Positions 14,705 to 60,587 of a stretch of DNA of 64,000 bases are shown in pieces. This DNA comes from a virus: the IMG/VR virus record IMGVR_UViG_3300035698_026680, positions 1 through 64,000 of that record. One strand, given 5' to 3'. The notes below the pieces were generated by a model that was not told where the DNA came from, searched no databases, and saw nothing but the letters and a program-made list of their open reading frames with translations. How positions within the stretch are numbered: the first letter of the stretch is position 1; each line of letters begins with the position of its first letter. A program made the position numbers and the translations under genes.

Positions 14705-15075
14705 TGGCATCAATAAATAAACCAACGCTTGGGGCGGCAACAATGCCTTTCCCAGATGAAGCCAACATTAAGCCAGATTGGGTTTCTGCCGAAGTAACAA
14801 CTTTAGGCGGAAAAACTCGCCGAGATGTCATGGCAAGAAAATATCAATATACTCTGAAGTGGAACTACATGAAAGTCTCGGATTACGATTCTCTGGAGAC
14901 AGTGGTTAATGCTTTAGTTGCCGCAGATTTTACCTATGGCAAATGGCCCCAAAGCGCAGTTGCAGTAAGTTGTTTAGGTGCATTATCTGAAAGAAAATTA
15001 ATGCATGGCGTTGGGGATTCTGCCTTTTTTTCTGGGGTCACACTAACATTAATTGAAGTAGAGAGTCGTTTGTAA
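14704..15075 (+). CDS. distal tail (Dit-like) protein
   Basis: small protein after the tape measure; T..G..RRD...K....LKW pattern. Confidence 0.6.
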   Translation: MASINKPTLGAATMPFPDEANIKPDWVSAEVTTLGGKTRRDVMARKYQYTLKWNYMKVSDYDSLETVVNALVAADFTYGKWPQSAVAVSCLGALSERKLMHGVGDSAFFSGVTLTLIEVESRL

Positions 15076-15081
15076 AAATAT

Positions 15082-18000
15082 ATGTCAGGATTAGACGCTA
15101 ATACAAAATTGTTGCTTCATGGCGACGGAGCAGATACATCCACTAACTTTCCAGATGTTTCTCCTTCGGGTCATACTGTAACAGCCAATAATGGAGCAGA
15201 AGTAGATACCGCAGAGAAAAAATGGGGTACTGGATCTCTTAAATTAGATGGTGTAGATGATTACTTAATTTCTGCTGATAATGCTGACTGGGATTTATGT
15301 GGTAGTAATTCAGATGACTGGACCATAGACTTCTGGGTAAAACACACCGATCATGTTGGCAATGAGGCCTATCTTTCACAAACAGAAACTATTAATTCTG
15401 ATGAATGGCGCATCATACATCAGCATGGCACTGGTTTTATTTTTACTTTAAAGTCAGGTGGTGGTAATGTAATTATTTTAAGTGGTGGCGGGGAAATTAC
15501 TGATACTGATTGGCATCATATCGCTTTTATTAAGGTTGGGGATGAGTACGCATTCTATAAAGATGGTGTCCAAGTCAATTATGTGCAAGATAATAGTATT
15601 GATACCTTTGCTGCTTCATTGGGAATAGGTGTTCTCGAACCTGGGGGGAATAATTACGATCCCTTAGACGGATGGATGGATGAAATTAGGATTCAAAAAT
15701 CTAATTATTTTGGTGCTAGTCCAAATGCGGGAATTAGCAATACGATCACGATTCCAACAAAAGCATACGAATATAAAAGTGCGAGTTTTATTGATTACGG
15801 ACCAGAATATAATTTCAATGCTGAAGAAACCTTAACTATTGCAACTGTCTGGTTAGACAGTACTCACTTTGTTGTTGCTTATTACAGTAATGTTGCCGTT
15901 ACGGGTATTTACGCCAAAGTCGGAGTAGTTTCAAACGGAAATCAAATATCCTATGGATCTGAATATCTTATTGATAGTAGTGGCTTTGGTGGAAGTGGAA
16001 TTAGATCATTCGCCATAGATAGAATAGATGCTAATAATTTTGTCATTGTCTGGGTTGACGGATCTGGATTCAAATATGGTTTGGCTGCAATAGGAGTTGT
16101 CTCAAATGGTGATGAAATTGCCTTCGGAACCGCAGTTAAATTTAATAATGCGGCCACAGGGACAGATATTGATGTTGCTGTTCTAGATACTACACACTTC
16201 GTAGTGGCTTTCAGAGATGATGGGGGAAGCGACTACGGAATCGCCATGATCGGTGTTATTTCAAGCGGAGATGTAATTACCTTCGGAAGTGAATATAACT
16301 TCAATGAAACTAGCACTTATTGGATTAAGGTTGGAAAAATAGATGCTACTCACTTTGTCGTCATTTATGACGATGATGGTGGAGATGGTTATGGAGAGTC
16401 TAAAATTGGAACTGTATCTAGCGGCGATCAAATAGCCTATGGAAGCGAATTTACCTGGACTAGCACAGATAACCCCCAGCATCTTGGTATGGCAATGTTG
16501 GATTCAACACACTTCGTCATTGCCTATAGAAAAACAGTTGATACCTGGGATGGTAGAGTCAAAATAGGAACTATCAGTGGGGCTAATATTAGCTATGAAA
16601 GCGCCACTGTTTTTCTTTCTGGTTCAAGTCCCACAGAAACTACTGTTTGCGCATTAGATGCTACCCACTTTGTTATTGGTTATTCTGACCTTGGAGACTC
16701 TGGTAAGGGATTTTGTGTCTTTGGAATCGTTTCAGACGGAAATACAATAGCAGCTGGAGATGCATATGAATATAACGCAGTAGACACAAACTACAACGCA
16801 ATTACCAAACTAGACGCTACCCATTTTGTAATTGCCTTTATGGATGATGGCGGTAGTGATTACGGAATAGCCAGAATAGGCGATATTGAAAGGAATTTAA
16901 CTGCCAAAGGAAGTATCCAGCGTTTAGGAGTTCAAAAAACGATAACCGCCAAAGGAAGAGTTCAGCATACCAGGACAAATTCAATTACTGCAAAAGGGCA
17001 AATTGGAGCTGTTTCAACATCAACCATAAATGCTAAAGCAGATATTCTCGCTACTACGTCTAAGTCTATACAGGCAAAATCAGCAATACAAAAATCTTTC
17101 TCTAGGGAAATTAGTTCTAAGAGTCGAATAGAAAAACAATTTAGTCAGTCAATTCAGGCTAAGGCAAACTTATCCGCAGTCTTAACTCAAACAATTACTT
17201 CAAAAGCAAGCATATTTAAAGGTGGCACTCGAACAATATCGGCAAAAGCAGCTATTCAAAAAGAATTTACCAAAACAATCACTGCAACAGCATGGATTCA
17301 TAACCCGCTAGTTCCACCAACACCATTTATAGAAGAAATAAATAAAACAGTAAGACAATTATCATTTAAAGTTGAAATTCAATGGGACGGAATTTCTTGG
17401 ACAGATGAAAGCACCTATTTCGTTAGTGCCAGGGGAAATGAAAAGTTATCAAAAACTTCTGGAGAAGGAATCGCCGCTACCTTAGATGTTGAGCTAGATA
17501 ACACCACAGAAAGATTTACTCCTGATAATACATCATCACCACTTTATGGCTACTTGAAACCAAGAGTCCCAATTAGAATCTATGTTACTGCTGGTGGATA
17601 CGATTATAGAATCTTTACTGGCTACATAAAAAATCTTCATCCCGATACAAGAAGTAGAATTTGTAGTCTAGAATGTTTTGATAATCAAGTCCTGGTTTAC
17701 AACAAAAGAGCCAATGGAATAGTCTATGAAGATTATAGAAGCGATCAATTAATGGAAGCCCTGTCTGATCTAGCTGGCCTAACGGCAGATCAATATATTT
17801 TCAATGTTGGTACTCTTGTGGTTAATTTTGGTTACTTTGAAGATAGAAATGTTTGGCCGGTTATGGGAGAAATAGCAGTTGCAGAAAGAGGAAGAATCTT
17901 CTTTGATAGATATGGAATCTTAACATTTTGGAATAGAGATAAATTACATAATCAATCAGCACGAGCTATTTTACCTACAATTTCTTTATCTGAATGGGTC

Positions 18001-23690: not shown

Positions 23691-23732
23691 AAAAAAGAAT
23701 AGGGTAGTTTTTAAGCTACCCTATTTTTATTT
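23691..23732. terminator. bidirectional intrinsic terminator between the converging late and tRNA operons
   Basis: AATAGGGTAG/CTACCCTATT stem flanked by an A tract and a T tract. Confidence 0.85.
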
Positions 23733-23751: not shown

Positions 23752-23827
23752 TGGAGCTAGTGGTTGGTCTCGAACCAACTGCCTTCTCGTTACAAAGGAG
23801 ATGCTCTGCCAGATGAGCTACACCAGC
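23752..23827 (-). tRNA. tRNA-Thr(TGT)
   Basis: cloverleaf; loop TTTGTAA; CCA encoded; C31-C39 mismatch. Confidence 0.9.
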
Positions 23828-24084
23828 TTATAAGTTCTTCCTGGGAACAAGACTGTAGCAATGTTCCCTGCATTCGTATCATAAACCACTATAAACTTCT
23901 TTCCTAGTAGAGAAACTTGATGGACTGTTCTACTAGGTGTTTGTCTTCCTAAAAAGATACTAATTCCGTTTTTAACCTGTTGGCAAAGTTTTCGATATTC
24001 TTTTCCGCTAATCCTAATATCATATCTCTCTAATAATCTTCTCCTAAAATGGATATGATTATTTCTCTTTTTTGATCTACCCAT
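23818..24084 (-). CDS. 88-aa tRNA-embedded protein, possible DUF4258/BECR-fold RNase
   Basis: ATG one base after the tRNA-Phe discriminator; HFRRRLLER and IVVYD..IATV motifs; stop inside tRNA-Thr. Confidence 0.6.
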   Translation of the reverse strand: MGRSKKRNNHIHFRRRLLERYDIRISGKEYRKLCQQVKNGISIFLGRQTPSRTVHQVSLLGKKFIVVYDTNAGNIATVLFPGRTYKLV

Positions 24085-24085
24085 G

Positions 24086-24160
24086 TGGGACTTTGTGGAA
24101 TCGAACCACAGCTTTCTGTTTTTCAGACAGACGCGCAATAACCAACTACGCTAAAGTCCC
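24086..24160 (-). tRNA. tRNA-Phe(GAA)
   Basis: TCTGT CTGAAAA ACAGA. Confidence 0.9.
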
Positions 24161-24165
24161 CTTTG

Positions 24166-24239
24166 AGCCCTGAGTCAGAATCGAACTGACGCATAGTGGG
24201 TTTGCAAGCCACCGCGTTAAACCACTTCGCCACCAGGGC
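24166..24239 (-). tRNA. tRNA-Cys(GCA)
   Basis: loop TTGCAAA; U73; C31-C39 mismatch. Confidence 0.9.
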
Positions 24240-24243
24240 TTAG

Positions 24244-24314
24244 TGACCCTACGGGGTTACGATCCCCGCCTTCTGGTTAGAAAGACCAGCGTCCTGCCAT
24301 TAGACTATAGGGCC
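24244..24314 (-). tRNA. tRNA-Glu(TTC), atypical
   Basis: CTGGT CTTTCTA ACCAG; U37; T-loop ATCGTAA. Confidence 0.75.
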
Positions 24315-24318
24315 TGAG

Positions 24319-24390
24319 TGACGCTACAGGGAATCGAACCCTGCCTGCTAAGTTGAGAACCTAGTGTCCTAACCGATAGACGATAGCGCC
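24319..24390 (-). tRNA. tRNA-Glu(CTC)
   Basis: CTAGG TTCTCAA CTTAG. Confidence 0.9.
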
Positions 24391-24394
24391 TTAG

Positions 24395-24485
24395 CGGAAG
24401 CAATAGGACTCGAACCTATGTTGCTGTTTGACGAGCAAACCAGTTTAGCAAACTGGCACGGCTAGCCTTCACCGAAACTACTTCC
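24395..24485 (-). tRNA. tRNA-Ser(GCT)
   Basis: CCAGT TTGCTAA ACTGG; long variable arm; G73; atypical D-arm. Confidence 0.85.
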
Positions 24486-24489
24486 ATGT

Positions 24490-24548
24490 AGCAGCGATAG
24501 ATTTTGTTCCAAACCGATCAAAATTCAGAAGTGTTCTCTATCGTTGCT
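24490..24548 (-). ncRNA. structured spacer hairpin (candidate ncRNA)
   Basis: 12-bp terminal stem AGCAACGATAGA/TCTATCGCTGCT with one mismatch; fills the Val-Ser spacer. Confidence 0.4.
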
Positions 24549-24549
24549 G

Positions 24550-24622
24550 TGCTCGATGACGGATTCGAACCGCCGACGCTCGGTATGTAAAACCGACGCT
24601 CTGGCCACTGAGCTAATCGAGC
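24550..24622 (-). tRNA. tRNA-Val(TAC)
   Basis: TCGGT TTTACAT ACCGA. Confidence 0.92.
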
Positions 24623-24626
24623 ATTG

Positions 24627-24698
24627 TAGGCCAAGTTGGGATCGAACCAACGACTCCCACTTCATCAGAGTGGTACTCTGCCACTGAGTTACTGGCCT
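24627..24698 (-). tRNA. tRNA-Ile(GAT)
   Basis: CCACT CTGATGA AGTGG; G37. Confidence 0.9.
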
Positions 24699-24703
24699 AT
24701 GTG

Positions 24704-24778
24704 TGCACCTAGTAGGACTCGAACCTACAGCCTACTGTTTCGAAGACAGTCGGCTCTGTCCAATTGAGCTATAAGTGC
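24704..24778 (-). tRNA. tRNA-Arg(TCG)
   Basis: ACTGT CTTCGAA ACAGT. Confidence 0.9.
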
Positions 24779-24782
24779 TTTG

Positions 24783-24856
24783 TGAGTCTGGATGGATTCG
24801 AACCATCGACACCCTAGTTAAGAGCTAGGTGCTCTGGCCAACTGAGCTACAGACCC
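24783..24856 (-). tRNA. tRNA-Lys(CTT)
   Basis: CCTAG CTCTTAA CTAGG. Confidence 0.95.
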
Positions 24857-24972
24857 TTGTTGAAATGATATCTAAGCCACCATTTATGAATCATTCTTGA
24901 CCAAAAGCCGTTTTTAGGAATCCTTTTATTTTTCCTTGTATTCCTGCTTTTGTTTTTCTTTTTATGATTCAT
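24847..24972 (-). CDS. 41-aa basic peptide between the two tRNA-Lys genes
   Basis: MNHKKKNKSRNTRKNKRIPKNGFWSRMIHKWWLRYHFNKGL; ATG right after tRNA-Lys(TTT); stop is T8-A9-G10 of tRNA-Lys(CTT). Confidence 0.5.
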   Translation of the reverse strand: MNHKKKNKSRNTRKNKRIPKNGFWSRMIHKWWLRYHFNKGL

Positions 24973-24973
24973 G

Positions 24974-25047
24974 TGAGTCCAGATGGAATCGAACCATCGA
25001 CCTGCAGGTTAAAAGCCTGTTGCTCTGCCGGACTGAGCTATGGACCC
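24974..25047 (-). tRNA. tRNA-Lys(TTT)
   Basis: CAGG CTTTTAA CCTG. Confidence 0.92.
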
Positions 25048-25049
25048 AA

Positions 25050-25292
25050 TTATCCGCTACTTAGGAAAATTCCTGGCATACAAGGACATTCAAAAGTATA
25101 AGGATCGCCCTTGACTTGTTTCAGCTTTTTTCCACAATTAGCGCATTTATTATTTTTTACTAGACTAAGAAGGTACTTGTTTGCCTTTTGGCAATCTTTA
25201 CAAGTATCTTGATTATGCCCCTTTTTCTTGCCAAGATTTTTCGTCAAATGTTCTAAACAAGGCTTAATTTTTTTCGGTGCATGCTTAATCAT
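25050..25292 (-). CDS. 80-aa Cys-rich (zinc-binding) tRNA-embedded protein
   Basis: CxxH, CxxC, CxxC, CxC; the A of ATG is the terminal A of the tRNA-Ser CCA. Confidence 0.6.
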   Translation of the reverse strand: MIKHAPKKIKPCLEHLTKNLGKKKGHNQDTCKDCQKANKYLLSLVKNNKCANCGKKLKQVKGDPYTFECPCMPGIFLSSG

Positions 25293-25381
25293 GGCGGAAG
25301 GTGTAGGACTCGAACCTACACGACCTTGCGGCCTGCTTGTTTTCAAGACAAGGGCGATATCCAATTACGCTTTAACCTTCC
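25292..25381 (-). tRNA. tRNA-Ser(TGA)
   Basis: CTTGT CTTGAAA ACAAG; long variable arm; G73; CCA encoded. Confidence 0.9.
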
Positions 25382-25385
25382 TTTG

Positions 25386-25456
25386 TCGCTAGGTCGGGAG
25401 TCGAACCCGAACTTTCAGATTATGAGCCTGATGTGCGGCCTTTACACTACCCAGCA
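25386..25456 (-). tRNA. tRNA-Met(CAT)
   Basis: TCAGG CTCATAA TCTGA; U1-G72. Confidence 0.85.
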
Positions 25457-25460
25457 TTTG

Positions 25461-25534
25461 TGCCTGAAAAGAGATTCGAACTCTTACAGTACCGGTTTTA
25501 AGCCGATTGTGTCTACCAATTGCACCATTCAGGC
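25461..25534 (-). tRNA. tRNA-Leu(TAA), short variable loop
   Basis: ATCGG CTTAAAA CCGGT; 5-nt variable loop. Confidence 0.88.
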
Positions 25535-25540
25535 TTTAGG

Positions 25541-25625
25541 CCAAGGAGTCGTAAGACCTTTCGCCAGAGCTAATTTTTATCTAGAAACAATTAGCAACTT
25601 CATCATCCATTTCAAGATGCCTTGG
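25541..25625. ncRNA. multi-stem structured spacer (candidate ncRNA)
   Basis: closing stem CCAAGG/CCTTGG enclosing three hairpins. Confidence 0.4.
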
Positions 25626-25698
25626 TAGGCGGGGCAGGAGTTGAACCTGCTTCCTTCTCTTTATAAGAGAGATGCTCCTTCCGTCAAGCTGACCGCCT
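25623..25698 (-). tRNA. tRNA-Ile(TAT)
   Basis: TCTCT CTTATAA AGAGA; CCA encoded. Confidence 0.85.
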
Positions 25699-25702
25699 AT
25701 AG

Positions 25703-25775
25703 TGCCTTCAACAGGAATCGAACCTGTAGTCTACTCCTTAGAAGGGAGTTGCTTTATCCGTTAAGCTACAAAGGC
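25703..25775 (-). tRNA. tRNA-Arg(TCT)
   Basis: ACTCC CTTCTAA GGAGT. Confidence 0.92.
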
Positions 25776-25779
25776 TTAG

Positions 25780-25851
25780 TGCGCCGACCAGGAATCGAAC
25801 CTGGGTCTAGGGCTTAGGAAGCCCCCATTCTATCCGCTAAACTACCAGCGC
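25780..25851 (-). tRNA. tRNA-Arg(CCT)
   Basis: GGGGC TTCCTAA GCCCT. Confidence 0.9.
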
Positions 25852-25853
25852 AT

Positions 25854-25946
25854 TCCTTGGCTTATTAATAAGTGACAGTGGCCGTCTGTCATGCAGTGGG
25901 AACTGCTCGTATTTTTTGACCCAGTGTTTCGCTGGGCTCCTTGGCT
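25854..25946. ncRNA. structured spacer bracketed by TCCTTGGCT direct repeats
   Basis: hairpins TGACAG/CTGTCA, GCAGT/ACTGC and CCCAG/CTGGG. Confidence 0.4.
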
Positions 25947-25947
25947 G

Positions 25948-26021
25948 TGCCTAAGATTGGATTCGAACCAACACTGTCGGGGTTTTGAATCCCGTATCTC
26001 TACCGATTGGATTACTTAGGC
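25948..26021 (-). tRNA. tRNA-Leu(CAA), short variable loop
   Basis: CGGG A TTCAAAA C CCCG; A31-C39 mismatch. Confidence 0.88.
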
Positions 26022-26025
26022 TTAA

Positions 26026-26121
26026 AAGAACTATGGGGGCGACAATCCCCATCGTACCGCTTTCGTTATCTTGCGACCTACTCACGACCCGCAGTAGAGC
26101 CTTTCTGCATTTATAGTTCTT
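26026..26121 (-). ncRNA. tRNA-like ncRNA without an anticodon arm
   Basis: AAGAACT/AGTTCTT acceptor-like stem; D-like GCAG/CTGC arm; T-like ATGGGG/CCCCAT arm. Confidence 0.45.
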
Positions 26122-26123
26122 AG

Positions 26124-26198
26124 TAGCCGATACAGGACTCGAACCTGTAAAACCTTGTTTCTAAAACAAGTATGTATACCAAATTCCATCAATCGGCC
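26124..26198 (-). tRNA. tRNA-Leu(TAG), short variable loop
   Basis: CTTGT TTTAGAA ACAAG; A37. Confidence 0.88.
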
Positions 26199-26245
26199 AT
26201 AAAGTGAGATATTATCAAAAAGAGAGATATTTTAAAGTGCAAATG

Positions 26246-26328
26246 TGCCGCCTATAGGAATCGAACCTATCTGGCCTTACGACAACAGCTTTACAGGCTG
26301 CCCCACCTCCTTAATGGACTACGACGGC
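26246..26328 (-). tRNA. tRNA-Tyr(GTA)
   Basis: GCAGC CTGTAAA GCTGT; long variable arm. Confidence 0.85.
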
Positions 26329-26482: not shown

Positions 26483-26614
26483 TTACTTTTTAACCCAAAG
26501 TCCATATTTCCCACAATTAGGACATTTAATTTGATAATGAGTTTTGCTCATTTTTTCAGCCCATGCATGAAATTGAATATATCCCTGTGGTTTTTTGGTA
26601 TGTTTACATTTCAT
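26483..26614 (-). CDS. 43-aa zinc-finger-like protein
   Basis: MKCKHTKKPQGYIQFHAWAEKMSKTHYQIKCPNCGKYGLWVKK. Confidence 0.6.
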   Translation of the reverse strand: MKCKHTKKPQGYIQFHAWAEKMSKTHYQIKCPNCGKYGLWVKK

Positions 26615-26783
26615 ATTGTCAATTGAAAGAAACAATCCCAGGGTAAGCATAATAAAAGTTACGATGATATCCCCGCGGATTCACCCAAACCGATTTTATT
26701 TTTGCCATTCGTATCGGACAAAACAAAACCGATGTCATTTCAAAGAGCAATTCCTTCTTACTTCCTTTTATCATATTACTTAT

Positions 26784-26812
26784 ATTATATCAAAAAGAGA
26801 GATATTTATCAC
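26784..26812 (-). promoter_or_regulatory. promoter of the minus-strand tRNA operon
   Basis: GTGATA-17-TATAAT with extended -10 TG. Confidence 0.7.
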
Positions 26813-52646: not shown

Positions 52647-52939
52647 AACTAACAAAAGAAGAAAGAAACCTTTTACTGTTTCTCGAATACACTGCAGTAG
52701 ATCAATGGGGCTGGGTCAAAGACATAAGACATTTAAACGCAGGAGATCTTGAGATTATGAAACAGTGGAATAAGTCTGGTTTTGTTTTATCAAAGCGAGC
52801 CCATAAAAGTAAAGGCAAGCTAACCCAACTCACCTATGTTGTTAAACTTTCTCCTGAAGCATGGGGGATGGCTCACAAGCTAAGGAGAGAAAAAGCAGAA
52901 AGACATATTCCAGAAAAATTTAATAAGGAGAAAATATGA
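52643..52939 (+). CDS. hypothetical protein
   Basis: coupled ORF. Confidence 0.7.
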   Translation: MKLTKEERNLLLFLEYTAVDQWGWVKDIRHLNAGDLEIMKQWNKSGFVLSKRAHKSKGKLTQLTYVVKLSPEAWGMAHKLRREKAERHIPEKFNKEKI

Positions 52940-54117
52940 AAGTAATAAACAAAAAAAACTATAAAGTACCAGTTTTTAATTGGTGTCCAGAAATTGAAGA
53001 TGGTGCTATGGCTCAAATAGACAACTTGGCACAATTGCCATTTGTATTTAAAAGAATTTCAATAATGAGTGACTGCCATCAAGGGTACGGGATGCCTATT
53101 GGTGGAGTTATGGCCGCCGAAGGCGTAATAGTTCCAAATGCTGTCGGTGTCGATATTGGTTGCGGAATGTGTGCGGTCAAAAGCAATTTGCGAGCAATTG
53201 ATACCGATTTGCTTAAAAAGATAATGGGGGAGATTAGGAAAGTAATTCCTTTGGGATTTAATAAGCATGATAAAGAACAAGATATCAAATTAATGCCCGA
53301 CAATGAAGAATTAAAGCTAATAGTTTATCAAGAGTATAACAACGCCCTAAAATCTCTCGGCTCTCTCGGTGGTGGTAACCACTTTATCGAAATCCAAAAA
53401 GGCGACGATGGTCATATTTGGATTATGATTCATTCTGGAAGTAGAAACTTGGGGTTCAAGGTAGCCCAACACTACAACAAACTGGCGGTTGAATTAAACG
53501 AAAAATGGAAAAGCGAAGTTCCTAAGAGTTGGGGGTTAGCTTTTTTACCAGTGGATTCTCAGGAAGGTCAAGACTACATAAAAGAAATGCAATACTGTGT
53601 TGACTTTGCTTTGGCCAATCGCAAGTTGATGATGGAAAGAGTGAAGGGAATTGTTGCTAAGGTTATTCAGGAAAGTTGGATTGATGGAATAATATCTATT
53701 GGATTCGAGCCAATGATAAATATAGCCCACAACTATGCTTCTTTAGAGAATCACTTTGGGAAGAATGTATGGGTACATAGAAAAGGGGCCACAAAAGCGA
53801 CCAAGGGGTTAGTAGGCATAATTCCTGGCTCACAAGGGACTAAAAGCTATATTGTCGAAGGCTTGGGCAATAAAGAGTCGTTTATGTCTTGTTCTCATGG
53901 AGCGGGTAGAAAAATGAGTCGAAGCCAAGCAAGGAAAGAACTAAGCCTTGTGGAAGAACAATACAAAATGGAAGGTATTGTTCACGGGATCAGAAGCGCT
54001 CAAGACTTAGATGAAGCCCCAGGATCTTATAAAGACATTGGCAAAGTGATGGAAAATCAAAAAGACCTAGTTAAAATTTTAGTTGAGTTAACACCACTAG
54101 CTGTTATTAAAAGTTAA
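52936..54117 (+). CDS. rtcB: RtcB RNA ligase
   Basis: DCHQGYG.PIG, VGVDIGCG, GGGNHFIE, HSGSR, HRKGA and SCSHGAGR motifs. Confidence 0.97.
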   Translation: MKVINKKNYKVPVFNWCPEIEDGAMAQIDNLAQLPFVFKRISIMSDCHQGYGMPIGGVMAAEGVIVPNAVGVDIGCGMCAVKSNLRAIDTDLLKKIMGEIRKVIPLGFNKHDKEQDIKLMPDNEELKLIVYQEYNNALKSLGSLGGGNHFIEIQKGDDGHIWIMIHSGSRNLGFKVAQHYNKLAVELNEKWKSEVPKSWGLAFLPVDSQEGQDYIKEMQYCVDFALANRKLMMERVKGIVAKVIQESWIDGIISIGFEPMINIAHNYASLENHFGKNVWVHRKGATKATKGLVGIIPGSQGTKSYIVEGLGNKESFMSCSHGAGRKMSRSQARKELSLVEEQYKMEGIVHGIRSAQDLDEAPGSYKDIGKVMENQKDLVKILVELTPLAVIKS

Positions 54118-59747: not shown

Positions 59748-59818
59748 GCGGGGTTAGTTGATTGGCTCAACGAGTCCCTTCCAAGGATTAAAAGCGAGTT
59801 CGATTCTCGCATCCCGCT
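59748..59818 (+). tRNA. tRNA-Gly(TCC)
   Basis: AGTCC CTTCCAA GGATT; U73. Confidence 0.9.
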
Positions 59819-59868
59819 CTATGAGTATTAAAGGAGAGTTTTACCATCGAAGCACAATCACCAAACAT

Positions 59869-59941
59869 GGTGTCGGTAGCTTAGTGGTTGAAGCGCTGGC
59901 CTGTGAAGCCAGAGACGGGAGTTCGATTCTCCTTCGATACC
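59869..59941 (+). tRNA. tRNA-His(GTG)
   Basis: CTGGC CTGTGAA GCCAG; G-1:C73. Confidence 0.92.
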
Positions 59942-59988
59942 CAAGTAGCACTTTAAATCAACAGAATTAATTACATTAAATCGGATAT

Positions 59989-60059
59989 TCCGAGATAGTG
60001 TAATGGCAGCACGGCTGGCCTTGGACCAGCTAATGTAGGTTCGACTCCTACTCTCGGAA
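59989..60059 (+). tRNA. tRNA-Gln(TTG)
   Basis: GCTGG CCTTGGA CCAGC; C33. Confidence 0.85.
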
Positions 60060-60068
60060 CACAGAAAA

Positions 60069-60139
60069 TGGCGTGTAGTATAACGGCAACACGCTCGGCT
60101 GTTAACCGAGAAATCTGGGTTCGATTCCCAGCGTGCCAG
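60069..60139 (+). tRNA. tRNA-Asn(GTT)
   Basis: CTCGG CTGTTAA CCGAG; G73. Confidence 0.9.
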
Positions 60140-60144
60140 CAAAT

Positions 60145-60321
60145 GCGGCGATGGTGTAGTGGTAGCACATCCTTTATCGAGCAACACCCTGGGACAAGCT
60201 CCCCAGTTCGGTACCGCTCACAATATAAATTCACTAGGTTTAAAGGTCTAGAGTTTTCTCGAGAACCTTTAAGCGGATGAAGTTACAATGGAAGACAAGG
60301 GTTCGAATCCCTTTCGCCGCT
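60145..60321 (+). ncRNA. tRNA-Gly-like RNA with a 113-nt structured segment in place of the anticodon loop
   Basis: perfect acceptor GCGGCGA/TCGCCGC plus U73; normal D-arm; T-arm AAGGG TTCGAAT CCCTT; insert 60175-60287. Confidence 0.8.
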
Positions 60322-60327
60322 CAAAAT

Positions 60328-60400
60328 GGGCTTGTAGCTCAGTCGGAAGAGCATTCGCTTTGCAAGCGAAAGGCCGAGAGTTCGATTCTCTCCAGGTCCA
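60328..60400 (+). tRNA. tRNA-Ala(TGC)
   Basis: TTCGC TTTGCAA GCGAA; G3-U70. Confidence 0.95.
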
Positions 60401-60405
60401 CATAT

Positions 60406-60479
60406 CAGGGATTGGCGGAGTTGGCCACCGCGCTCGGTTTGGAACCGAGAGATCATAGGTTCGAATCCTGTATCCCTGA
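60406..60479 (+). tRNA. tRNA-Pro(TGG)
   Basis: CTCGG TTTGGAA CCGAG; A37. Confidence 0.92.
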
Positions 60480-60484
60480 CTAAA

Positions 60485-60555
60485 GGCTTGTTGATTTAAT
60501 GGTAGAATGTCGTCTTGTCAAGGCGATTGCAGGAGTTCGATTCTCCTACAGGCCG
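60485..60555 (+). tRNA. tRNA-Asp(GTC)
   Basis: TCGTC TTGTCAA GGCGA; G73. Confidence 0.9.
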
Positions 60556-60587
60556 CTAAGTAATGAGTATTAGGAAAAGGAGAAGAA

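What the first reader, a model, noticed from the sequence alone, without database searches (positions are those of the whole stretch)
23818..25292. Three ORFs welded to tRNA 3' ends, two using the next tRNA's U8-A9-G10 as stop codon
Seen: all three ORFs inside the array start at a tRNA 3' end: Phe ..A73-C-ATG (24084), Lys(TTT) ..A73-C-ATG (24972), and Ser(TGA), where the A of CCA is the A of ATG (25292). There is no room for a Shine-Dalgarno outside the folded tRNA. Two ORFs read into the next tRNA and stop on TAG at its positions 8-10 (Thr; Lys CTT). Inference: cleavage after the discriminator would release near-leaderless mRNAs, while RNase P cleavage of the downstream tRNA would remove the stop codon. 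Protein output would then be gated by tRNA processing. Caveat: a degenerate CCA (CA) supplies the A, so some chance contribution is possible.
Basis: partly seen in the sequence, partly recalled or inferred. Interest (0 to 1): 0.82.

Follow-up and report, generated by a model that had tools for sequence, protein, structure and literature searches.

The report
Phage genes starting flush on tRNAs
In this uncultured 102-kb phage, three small genes inside a 20-tRNA operon begin one or two bases after a tRNA's discriminator base with no ribosome-binding site, so cutting out the tRNA probably frees an almost leaderless message as in mitochondria, although no RNA data show this yet.

Summary
ORF1 (24084-23818), ORF2 (24972-24847) and ORF3 (25292-25050) each start at tRNA position 75 or 76 and fill their tRNA-tRNA gaps completely. 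ORF1 and ORF2 stop on the TAG at positions 8-10 of the next tRNA. Shuffles give such an arrangement in 5, 459 and 17 of 200,000 trials.

- **ORF1** is a real gene: 386 homologues, AF2 pLDDT 95, and a RelE/colicin-type (BECR) RNase-like fold.
- **ORF3** is probably real. **ORF2** is uncertain.
- **Stop inside the next tRNA** is ordinary tight packing. Phage T5 and relatives of this phage do the same.
- **Flush start** is not T5-like. Twelve T5 genes that follow tRNAs start 13-34 nt after CCA, each behind a purine-rich, Shine-Dalgarno-like stretch.

A related 115-kb phage has three more starts 5-6 nt after CCA. In unrelated IMG/VR contigs, long frames after discriminator-C-ATG lie in the ATG's frame 15 times, against 1 and 1 in the other frames. 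Relatives also start promoter-proximal genes 5-6 nt after a -10 box.

Best reading (about 0.5): tRNA 3' processing releases near-leaderless mRNAs. No RNA data were obtainable. This scan has noted the same arrangement in at least seven other phage genomes, and I found no paper on it.

The parts
26784..26812 (-). Promoter P1 of the only minus-strand transcription unit (GTGATA, 17-nt spacer, TATAAT with TG; preceded by the motif ATATCTCTCTTTTT)
   Evidence: Best hit of the promoter scan. The motif occurs only twice in the 102-kb genome, both times on the minus strand. The same motif precedes the Fic genes of relatives.
26483..26650 (-). 55-aa CxxC (zinc-ribbon-like) ORF upstream of the array, no Shine-Dalgarno sequence
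   Evidence: Codon-usage score 0.073. Weak, below-cutoff CapR-like Pfam hit.
26211..26227 (-). Second copy of the promoter motif (P2), about 10 nt upstream of tRNA-Leu(tag)
   Evidence: and the sequence.
23752..26328 (-). Array of 20 tRNA genes. Neighbours are spaced 4-5 nt after the discriminator. C74 is present in all; CCA is encoded in only three.
   Evidence: ARAGORN, Rfam, junction table.
25292..25381 (-). tRNA-Ser(tga). Its A76 is the A of ORF3's ATG.
25050..25292 (-). ORF3, 80 aa, four Cys pairs or CxxH (zinc-ribbon-like). Its own TAA ends 2 nt before tRNA-Lys(ttt).
   Evidence: Shuffle test 17/200,000. Codon score 0.035, like ORF1. No homologue except itself in the word-seeded search. 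AF2 single-sequence pLDDT 59.5.
24973..25047 (-). tRNA-Lys(ttt): discriminator A, then C, then the ATG of ORF2
24847..24972 (-). ORF2, 41 aa, very basic. Its stop TAG is positions 8-10 of tRNA-Lys(ctt). Coding status uncertain.
   Evidence: Shuffle test 459/200,000. Codon score -0.037, ambiguous. No family hit.
24782..24856 (-). tRNA-Lys(ctt), whose U8-A9-G10 is ORF2's stop
24085..24160 (-). tRNA-Phe(gaa): discriminator A, then C, then the ATG of ORF1
23818..24084 (-). ORF1, 88 aa. Member of a widespread unnamed family with a BECR/RelE-like RNase fold. Its last three codons (K-L-V) and its stop overlap tRNA-Thr positions 1-10.
   Evidence: 386 homologues at E<=1e-3, aligned over the full length. 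Invariant His12. AF2 pLDDT 95.3. Top structural matches are CdiA-CT toxins (Z 6.9 and 5.9), MqsR, colicin D, BrnT and RelE. Tails of close relatives are conserved.
23752..23827 (-). tRNA-Thr(tgt), last gene of the array, CCA encoded. Its U8-A9-G10 is ORF1's stop.
23695..23728 (.). Bidirectional intrinsic terminator between the plus-strand structural genes and the minus-strand tRNA operon
   Evidence: and the sequence.

Best explanation
The three ORFs are genes carried inside a single minus-strand tRNA operon. ORF1 is certainly a gene, ORF3 probably, ORF2 possibly. The operon runs from promoters near 26.8 and 26.2 kb to a terminator at 23.7 kb.

Each AUG lies at tRNA position 75 or 76, so there is no space for a Shine-Dalgarno sequence. 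A folded acceptor stem 2-3 nt upstream should block the ribosome's mRNA path.

The most likely route to translation is that endonucleolytic 3' maturation of the upstream tRNA creates the 5' end of the message:
- an RNase Z-type cut after the discriminator would give C-AUG or CC-AUG;
- a cut after C74, as mapped in actinobacteria, would give AUG or C-AUG.

The released message would then be read by the leaderless pathway, a phage counterpart of mitochondrial tRNA punctuation.

The 3' overlap with the next tRNA is tight packing. It implies that ORF1 and ORF2 must be translated before, or in competition with, RNase P cleavage of the downstream tRNA.

Shown here: the junction anatomy, that ORF1 is real, that the junction type recurs, and that no upstream site or nearby promoter exists. 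Inferred: the cleavage, the leaderless initiation and the order of events.
For: - Junction anatomy.
- Not chance.
- ORF1 is real and its N-terminus fits this ATG. The invariant His is residue 12, and there is no other in-frame start.
- Cloverleaf folds end 2-3 nt before the AUG.
- No convincing promoter lies before any of the three ORFs. There is one strong promoter upstream and one terminator downstream.
- The related phage (L039/L137) has three more same-strand ORFs starting 5-6 nt after CCA without a Shine-Dalgarno sequence. The tRNAs concerned were confirmed with Rfam.
- IMG/VR survey: of 47 confirmed tRNAs followed by C-ATG, the flush frame is open for 50 codons or more in 15, against 1 and 1 in the other frames.
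- Among unselected tRNAs of those contigs, gene-start offsets are bimodal: a peak at +2, none at 11-14, then 15-60.
- Contrast with T5: 12 of 12 post-tRNA genes start 13-34 nt after CCA, each behind a purine-rich, Shine-Dalgarno-like stretch. This phage's own plus-strand gene after tRNA-Asp starts 31 nt on, with AAAGGAG.
- Relatives start promoter-proximal genes of the same operon 5-6 nt after TGATATAAT or CGATATAAT. That spacing suggests leaderless transcripts and hence a host able to translate them (Fic confirmed).
- Cleavage between C74 and C75 is documented by dRNA-seq in S. coelicolor (PMC4681348) and P. acnes (PMC3848588).
Against: - There are no RNA 5'-end, ribosome-profiling or proteomic data.
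- The host is unknown, so its tRNA 3'-processing route and its capacity for leaderless translation are unknown.
- About 40% of this phage's first-ATG ORFs lack a clear Shine-Dalgarno core, so initiation without one is common here.
- A cut after the discriminator leaves a 1-2 nt leader. In E. coli even short 5' extensions lower leaderless translation (from my own knowledge).
- Complete punctuation would strip the stop codons of ORF1 and ORF2.
- ORF2's coding status is ambiguous, and ORF3 has no detected homologue.
Confidence: 0.5

Rival explanations
1. Compaction only. The genes are translated from the unprocessed or nascent precursor by initiation without a Shine-Dalgarno sequence, relying on A-rich, weakly structured coding starts, before or instead of tRNA folding. 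The flush position would reflect only deletion of all spare bases in a densely packed array.
For:
- The first 20 nt after the AUGs are A-rich, with mean unpaired probability 0.52-0.96.
- tRNA-tRNA spacers are only 4-5 nt, showing strong compaction.
- ORF 3' ends also overlap tRNAs.
Against: - The acceptor stem ends 2-3 nt before the AUG. From established ribosome structure, the mRNA upstream of the P site runs through a narrow path, so a folded tRNA there should clash.
- T5, equally compact, keeps 13-34 nt with a purine-rich stretch.
- The offsets in other phages are bimodal with a gap at 11-14 nt, not a smooth decay toward zero.
Confidence: 0.25
2. Processing-gated output. RNase P cleavage of the downstream tRNA removes the stop codon of ORF1 and ORF2. 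Fully processed messages then become non-stop substrates for trans-translation, and protein yield is set by the race between ribosomes and RNase P.
For: The stops of ORF1 and ORF2 lie at positions 8-10 of the next tRNA, so an RNase P cut would leave messages ending in a partial codon AA. ORF1's last residues K-L-V, which match the tails of close relatives, are encoded by tRNA-Thr positions 1-7.
Against: - The same overlap is common and variable in register: 6-24 nt in T5, and TGA at positions 3-5 or exact abutment in relatives.
- ORF3 keeps its own stop.
- Two of two ORFs landing on positions 8-10 is expected about one time in nine, given read-through.
- Nothing indicates regulation rather than tolerance.
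Confidence: 0.12
3. Some or all of the ORFs are unexpressed passengers or decaying remnants. This applies above all to ORF2, and perhaps to ORF3.
For: - ORF2 and ORF3 have no homologues or family hits.
- ORF2's codon score is within the spurious range: 10.7% of spurious ORFs score as high or higher.
- ORF content of the gaps differs between related phages.
Against: - ORF1 has 386 homologues, intact conserved residues and pLDDT 95.
- Open frames spanning the whole gap are very unlikely by chance.
- ORF3 scores like ORF1.
Confidence: 0.1

Closest known systems
tRNA punctuation of animal mitochondrial transcripts (Ojala, Montoya and Attardi 1981, from my own knowledge; reviewed in PMC8601606 and PMC11112384, whose abstracts appear)
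   Same: Coding sequences butt directly against tRNAs in a polycistronic transcript. The start codon lies at or within a few nucleotides of the tRNA 3' cleavage site. There is no upstream ribosome-binding sequence.
   Different: This is a bacterial virus, so host RNase P and RNase Z (or another nuclease) would act, and none of this has been shown. Stop codons here are complete: they lie inside the next tRNA or just before it, and are not truncated codons finished by polyadenylation. Only 3 of 20 tRNAs are followed by a gene.
Phage T5 tRNA region (NC_005859, 28-41 kb)
   Same: Small ORFs, stable RNAs of unknown function and more than 20 tRNAs are interleaved on one strand. Several ORFs run 6-24 nt into the next tRNA, or abut it.
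   Different: All 12 T5 ORFs that follow a tRNA start 13-34 nt after CCA, behind a purine-rich, Shine-Dalgarno-like stretch. Here the ATG sits at tRNA position 75 or 76.
Leaderless mRNAs made at promoters (lambda cI from PRM; common in actinobacteria: PMC4681348, PMC3848588, PMC4633059)
   Same: An AUG start with no 5' untranslated region. Relatives of this phage appear to use this mode for the first gene of the same operon.
   Different: Here the 5' end would come from RNA processing and carry a monophosphate, possibly with 1-2 extra nucleotides, rather than from transcription initiation.
BECR/RelE-fold RNase toxins (CdiA-CT, colicin D and E5, MqsR, BrnT, RelE), for ORF1 only
   Same: Predicted two-helix plus four-strand fold. 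The best structural matches are almost all RNase toxins of this fold. His, Arg, Tyr and Thr residues are conserved.
   Different: No sequence-level membership in any Pfam family and no match to a solved structure. All Z scores are below 8. No neighbouring immunity or antitoxin gene was identified. Activity is unknown.

Membership tests
Mitochondrial-type tRNA punctuation | The coding sequence abuts the 3' end of an upstream tRNA with no spacer to hold a ribosome-binding site | tested here: met
   The ATG lies 1, 1 and 2 nt after the discriminator.
Mitochondrial-type tRNA punctuation | tRNAs and mRNAs are made as one polycistronic precursor | tested here: inconclusive
   There is one strong promoter upstream, a second copy of its motif inside the array, one terminator downstream, and no good promoter before the ORFs. 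No RNA data.
Mitochondrial-type tRNA punctuation | Cleavage at the tRNA ends releases the mRNA | not testable with these tools
Mitochondrial-type tRNA punctuation | Incomplete stop codons are completed by polyadenylation | tested here: not met
   ORF3 has a full TAA. ORF1 and ORF2 use a full TAG inside the next tRNA. An RNase P cut would leave ...AA out of register for UAA.
Leaderless mRNA | AUG start codon and no Shine-Dalgarno sequence upstream | tested here: met
   All three start with ATG. Upstream is tRNA acceptor and T-arm sequence with no core of 4 nt or more.
Leaderless mRNA | The start codon is at the physical 5' end of the RNA | not testable with these tools
   This needs 5'-end mapping.
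T5-type ORFs in phage tRNA regions | ORFs interleaved with tRNAs on the same strand, with 3' ends that may overlap the next tRNA | tested here: met
T5-type ORFs in phage tRNA regions | The ORF's own ribosome-binding site lies in a 13-34 nt spacer after the tRNA | tested here: not met
BECR/RelE-fold RNase (ORF1) | Two helices packed on a four-stranded antiparallel sheet, matching solved toxins of this fold | tested here: inconclusive
   pLDDT 95.3. Best Z 6.9 with rmsd 2.5 over 74 residues to 7m5f_C. The top of the list is dominated by RNase toxins, but all Z scores are below 8. Foldseek probability 0.90 to 8ey4_A, at E 0.14.
BECR/RelE-fold RNase (ORF1) | Sequence membership in a named family such as DUF4258 | tested here: not met
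   No Pfam family was found for ORF1 or for 58 of the other 59 aligned homologues; two unrelated DUFs hit at most two members. No PHROG hit.
BECR/RelE-fold RNase (ORF1) | Ribonuclease activity | not testable with these tools
   This needs an assay.

The most novel reading that the evidence does not exclude
Phage tRNA operons work as mitochondria-like punctuated transcripts. Host tRNA-maturation enzymes cut out the tRNAs and thereby create translatable leaderless messages. In this phage, that would couple synthesis of an RNase-toxin-like protein (ORF1) to the moment its own, unusually built tRNA set matures. For example, host tRNAs or RNAs could be attacked only once the phage's replacements are in place, with the phage's RtcB ligase as a possible repair arm.
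Probability: 0.15. Interest if true: 0.8.

Novelty: new variant of a known kind. Interest (0 to 1): 0.6.

Why it matters
If tRNA excision really creates the 5' ends of these messages, bacteria-infecting viruses use a gene-expression logic so far described for mitochondria. RNA processing, rather than a promoter or a ribosome-binding site, would decide which small genes are read.

- It would explain how genes survive in tRNA arrays without translation signals.
- It would improve gene calling next to tRNAs, where such starts are easily missed or mis-set.
- It would offer a compact design rule for tRNA-flanked expression cassettes.

The arrangement recurs in many uncultured phages (my survey, and earlier notes of this scan), so one well-chosen experiment would settle a general question. 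For this phage it also ties an RNase-like protein to the tRNA operon.

Tried and rejected
- **RNA evidence.** I obtained no read data and no DNA for the closest ORF1 relative, P0122 (69% identity, on a 1,283-bp contig).
- **Close relatives of the array.**
  - INPHARED has no similar phage at DNA level and no ORF1 homologue by tblastn.
  - Two IMG/VR contigs with 80%-identical terminase do not reach array A.
- **ORF1, ORF2 and ORF3** have no homologues in any of the syntenic loci fetched.
- **Family searches.**
  - Pfam and PHROGs gave nothing for the three ORFs.
  - A PDB sequence-profile search gave nothing.
- **ORF3.**
  - The word-seeded search found only ORF3 itself.
  - Atlas look-alikes are unnamed viral clusters scoring below 0.9.
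  - The single-sequence AF2 model is poor, pLDDT 59.5.
- **Toxin-inhibitor idea.** I tested whether ORF3 could be a zinc-ribbon inhibitor of ORF1, by analogy with MqsR/MqsA. Complex prediction gave no verdict. The idea is left open, neither supported nor refuted.
- **Host inference from RtcB.** The nearest genomic homologues are scattered over Chitinivibrionales, Acidobacteria, Patescibacteria, Desulfobacterota and others, so no host could be named.
- **Rfam.** No family matches the non-coding gaps.
- **Lack of a Shine-Dalgarno sequence as an argument.** I considered whether it was remarkable on its own and rejected that. About 40% of first-ATG ORFs lack a clear core. The argument rests on position and structure, not on the missing motif.
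- **Literature.** Five full-text searches found no paper on tRNA-punctuated or tRNA-released leaderless mRNAs in phages. This covers only the open-access library.
Full report
**What the window is.** The window is the first 64 kb of a 102,499-bp virus record with 36.6% G+C and a roughly 127-bp terminal overlap. All genes of 250 codons or more lie on the plus strand. The one minus-strand unit is a tRNA operon: 20 tRNA genes at 23752-26328. A strong extended -10 promoter lies upstream at 26812-26784, and a second copy of its upstream motif sits at 26227-26211. That motif occurs nowhere else in the genome. A bidirectional terminator at 23695-23728 closes the unit. A second array of seven or more tRNAs lies on the plus strand at 59748-60556.

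- ORF1 runs 24084 to 23818 (88 aa). It starts one base (C) after discriminator A of tRNA-Phe.
- ORF2 runs 24972 to 24847 (41 aa). It starts one base (C) after discriminator A of tRNA-Lys(ttt).
- ORF3 runs 25292 to 25050 (80 aa). It starts on the A of the encoded CCA of tRNA-Ser(tga).
- ORF1 and ORF2 end on the TAG at positions 8-10 of tRNA-Thr and tRNA-Lys(ctt). ORF3 has its own TAA, ending 2 nt before the next tRNA.
- Each ORF fills its gap completely.
- Shuffling each gap gives an early ATG with the frame open to the end in 5, 459 and 17 of 200,000 trials.
- All 27 tRNAs carry C74 and only three encode CCA. Neighbouring tRNAs are 4-5 nt apart, with spacers such as CAAA or CTAA. The ATG therefore occupies the first position that keeps C74.

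**Are the ORFs genes?**
- **ORF1: yes.**
  - An exhaustive HMMER search found 386 proteins at E<=1e-3. Most are 80-110 aa and align from about residue 3 to about residue 80.
  - His12 is invariant, and Arg16, Arg20, Tyr68, Thr77 and Leu79 are nearly so.
  - No other in-frame start precedes His12, so the flush ATG is the start.
  - With this alignment AF2 gives pLDDT 95.3, with two helices and four strands.
  - Foldseek and VIA-align list almost only RNase toxins of the Barnase-EndoU-colicin-RelE fold at the top. These are CdiA-CT 7m5f_C (Z 6.9, rmsd 2.5, 74 residues), 8ey4_A (Z 5.9), MqsR, MafB-CT, colicin D, BrnT and RelE.
  - All Z values are below 8 and no Pfam family fits. I call it RNase-like, not a member of a named family.
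  - Close relatives end PGKTYKLVF, PCKTYHF, PCRSYKFQ and PGGSYNLV. ORF1's tail TYKLV therefore resembles the family's own, although its K-L-V codons are tRNA-Thr positions 1-7. That would be a real dual-coding overlap.
- **ORF3: probably.** Its codon-usage score is like ORF1's (0.035 against 0.046). Both are in the top 5% of spurious ORFs and the bottom 13% of accepted small genes. It has four Cys or His pairs, but no homologue was found.
- **ORF2: ambiguous.** Its score is -0.037.

**The 3' overlap is ordinary.** In phage T5, ORFs T5.069, hegC, hegD and T5.057 run 6-24 nt into the next tRNA, and T5.065 abuts one. In relatives of this phage a Fic-domain gene (Pfam Fic, E 2.6e-12) occupies the slot before tRNA-Thr. 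It ends either exactly at position +1 or on TGA at positions 3-5. In the related 115-kb phage one ORF ends on TGA at positions 3-5 of tRNA-Ile. Two ORFs both landing on positions 8-10 needs no special explanation.

**The 5' weld is not ordinary.**
- All 12 T5 ORFs that follow a tRNA start 13-34 nt after CCA, each behind a purine-rich, Shine-Dalgarno-like stretch.
- In this phage, the plus-strand gene after tRNA-Asp starts 31 nt on, behind AAAGGAG.
- The flush type recurs in the clade.
  - I found relatives with an alignment of the neighbouring M23 peptidase.
  - A syntenic 115-kb phage (L039/L137) encodes CCA on all its tRNAs. It has three same-strand ORFs that start 5-6 nt of pure A/T after CCA, with no Shine-Dalgarno sequence.
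  - The same phage also has one ORF with a strong site, so both modes coexist.
- The flush type recurs outside the clade.
  - Of 47 ARAGORN-confirmed cases with no tRNA next, the frame of the flush ATG is open for 50 codons or more in 15. The other two frames are open in 1 each. Taken at face value this is a binomial p of about 5e-6 (my arithmetic), although some contigs may be related.
  - I then looked at 154 tRNAs of those contigs that the pattern had not selected. Starts of long ORFs peak at +2 after the discriminator (6 cases), with 2 at +3, none at 11-14, and a broad class at 15-60. That sample is biased toward phages with at least one flush junction.

**Why processing-coupled leaderless translation is the best reading.**
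- Predicted folds keep the cloverleaf, with the acceptor stem ending 2-3 nt before the AUG. From established ribosome structure, a folded tRNA there should clash with the mRNA path upstream of the P site.
- No usable promoter precedes the ORFs.
- In relatives, the first gene of the same operon starts 5-6 nt after TGATATAAT or CGATATAAT. This applies both to Fic and, in one relative, to a different gene. The spacing matches lambda PRM-cI (own knowledge), so these phages seem to rely on leaderless translation anyway.
- An endonucleolytic cut after the discriminator would leave C-AUG or CC-AUG.
- A cut between C74 and C75 has been mapped in S. coelicolor (PMC4681348) and P. acnes (PMC3848588). 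It would leave AUG for ORF1 and ORF2 and C-AUG for ORF3.
- The universal C74 is compatible with, but does not prove, such a cut.

**What weakens it.**
- No RNA data could be obtained.
- The host is unknown, and RtcB homologues are taxonomically scattered.
- About 40% of the phage's ORFs lack a clear Shine-Dalgarno core, so another mode of initiation without one exists here.
- Complete excision of the flanking tRNAs would leave ORF1 and ORF2 without stop codons. At most the 5' side behaves like punctuation, and translation must precede or compete with RNase P.

**Prior notes and literature.** This scan has recorded the same arrangement in at least seven other phage genomes, each read as mitochondria-like punctuation and none with RNA data. 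I treat these as leads. My own survey and the T5 control are the evidence used here. Five full-text searches found no paper that describes it in phages.

**Verdict.** It is a recurrent, apparently unpublished variant of tRNA punctuation whose mechanism is inferred, not shown.

Noticed in passing
window 24486-24548, 25535-25622, 25852-25946, 26022-26122 (minus strand): The four ORF-free gaps of 64-102 nt inside the array fold into closed stem structures. The Val-to-Ser(gct) gap is a long hairpin (z = -4.4). The others score z = -1.1 to -2.2. None matches an Rfam family. They recall the 'stable RNAs of unknown function' annotated between the T5 tRNAs. The related phage has a structured stretch of about 150 nt before its DUF7448 gene (L039 about 14815-14969).
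   Followed up: partly
L058 2756-3217; L062 2771-3229; L059 1834-2292; L060 11776-12234; L065 2139-2998: Relatives carry a 152-aa Fic-domain gene in the slot where this phage has ORF1, directly before tRNA-Thr. The promoter-proximal gene starts 5-6 nt after an extended -10 box, which suggests leaderless transcripts. The gene cargo of this slot is swapped between relatives, while the tRNA-Thr 5' end (GCTGGTGTAG) is kept.
   Followed up: partly
window, all 27 tRNAs; L039 and L137, all tRNAs: Every tRNA of this phage has C74, but only three encode CCA. The related 115-kb phage encodes CCA on every tRNA. So 3'-end design differs sharply between relatives with syntenic arrays.
   Followed up: partly
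window 52936-54117 (+): An RtcB-type RNA ligase (PHROG 1075, E 2e-118) is encoded in the same genome as the RNase-like ORF1. It is a possible RNA cleavage-and-repair pair. The nearest genomic RtcB homologues (up to 68% identity) are scattered over many phyla.
   Followed up: partly
window 60141-60327 (+): The 188-nt gap between tRNA-Asn and tRNA-Ala begins with a perfect tRNA 5' half and ends with a T-arm and acceptor strand, with a long insert between them. ARAGORN does not call it.
   Followed up: no
L039 about 15466-15540 and about 15048-15125: Two tRNAs of the related phage (anticodons CAT and CTC) are missed by ARAGORN but found by Rfam (48 and 50 bits). They have non-canonical T-loops.
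   Followed up: partly
window 27541, 29462, 29758, 29971 (+): Several small early genes share an unusual upstream motif, GATTGGGGGTGA or GATCGGGGTGA, 8-10 nt before the ATG. It is probably an extended Shine-Dalgarno variant that pairs with the 16S 3' tail.
   Followed up: no
window 26619-26774 (-): A 51-codon ORF starts 7-9 nt after the P1 -10 box, but its codon-usage score is poor (-0.099). It may be a non-coding leader rather than a gene.
   Followed up: partly
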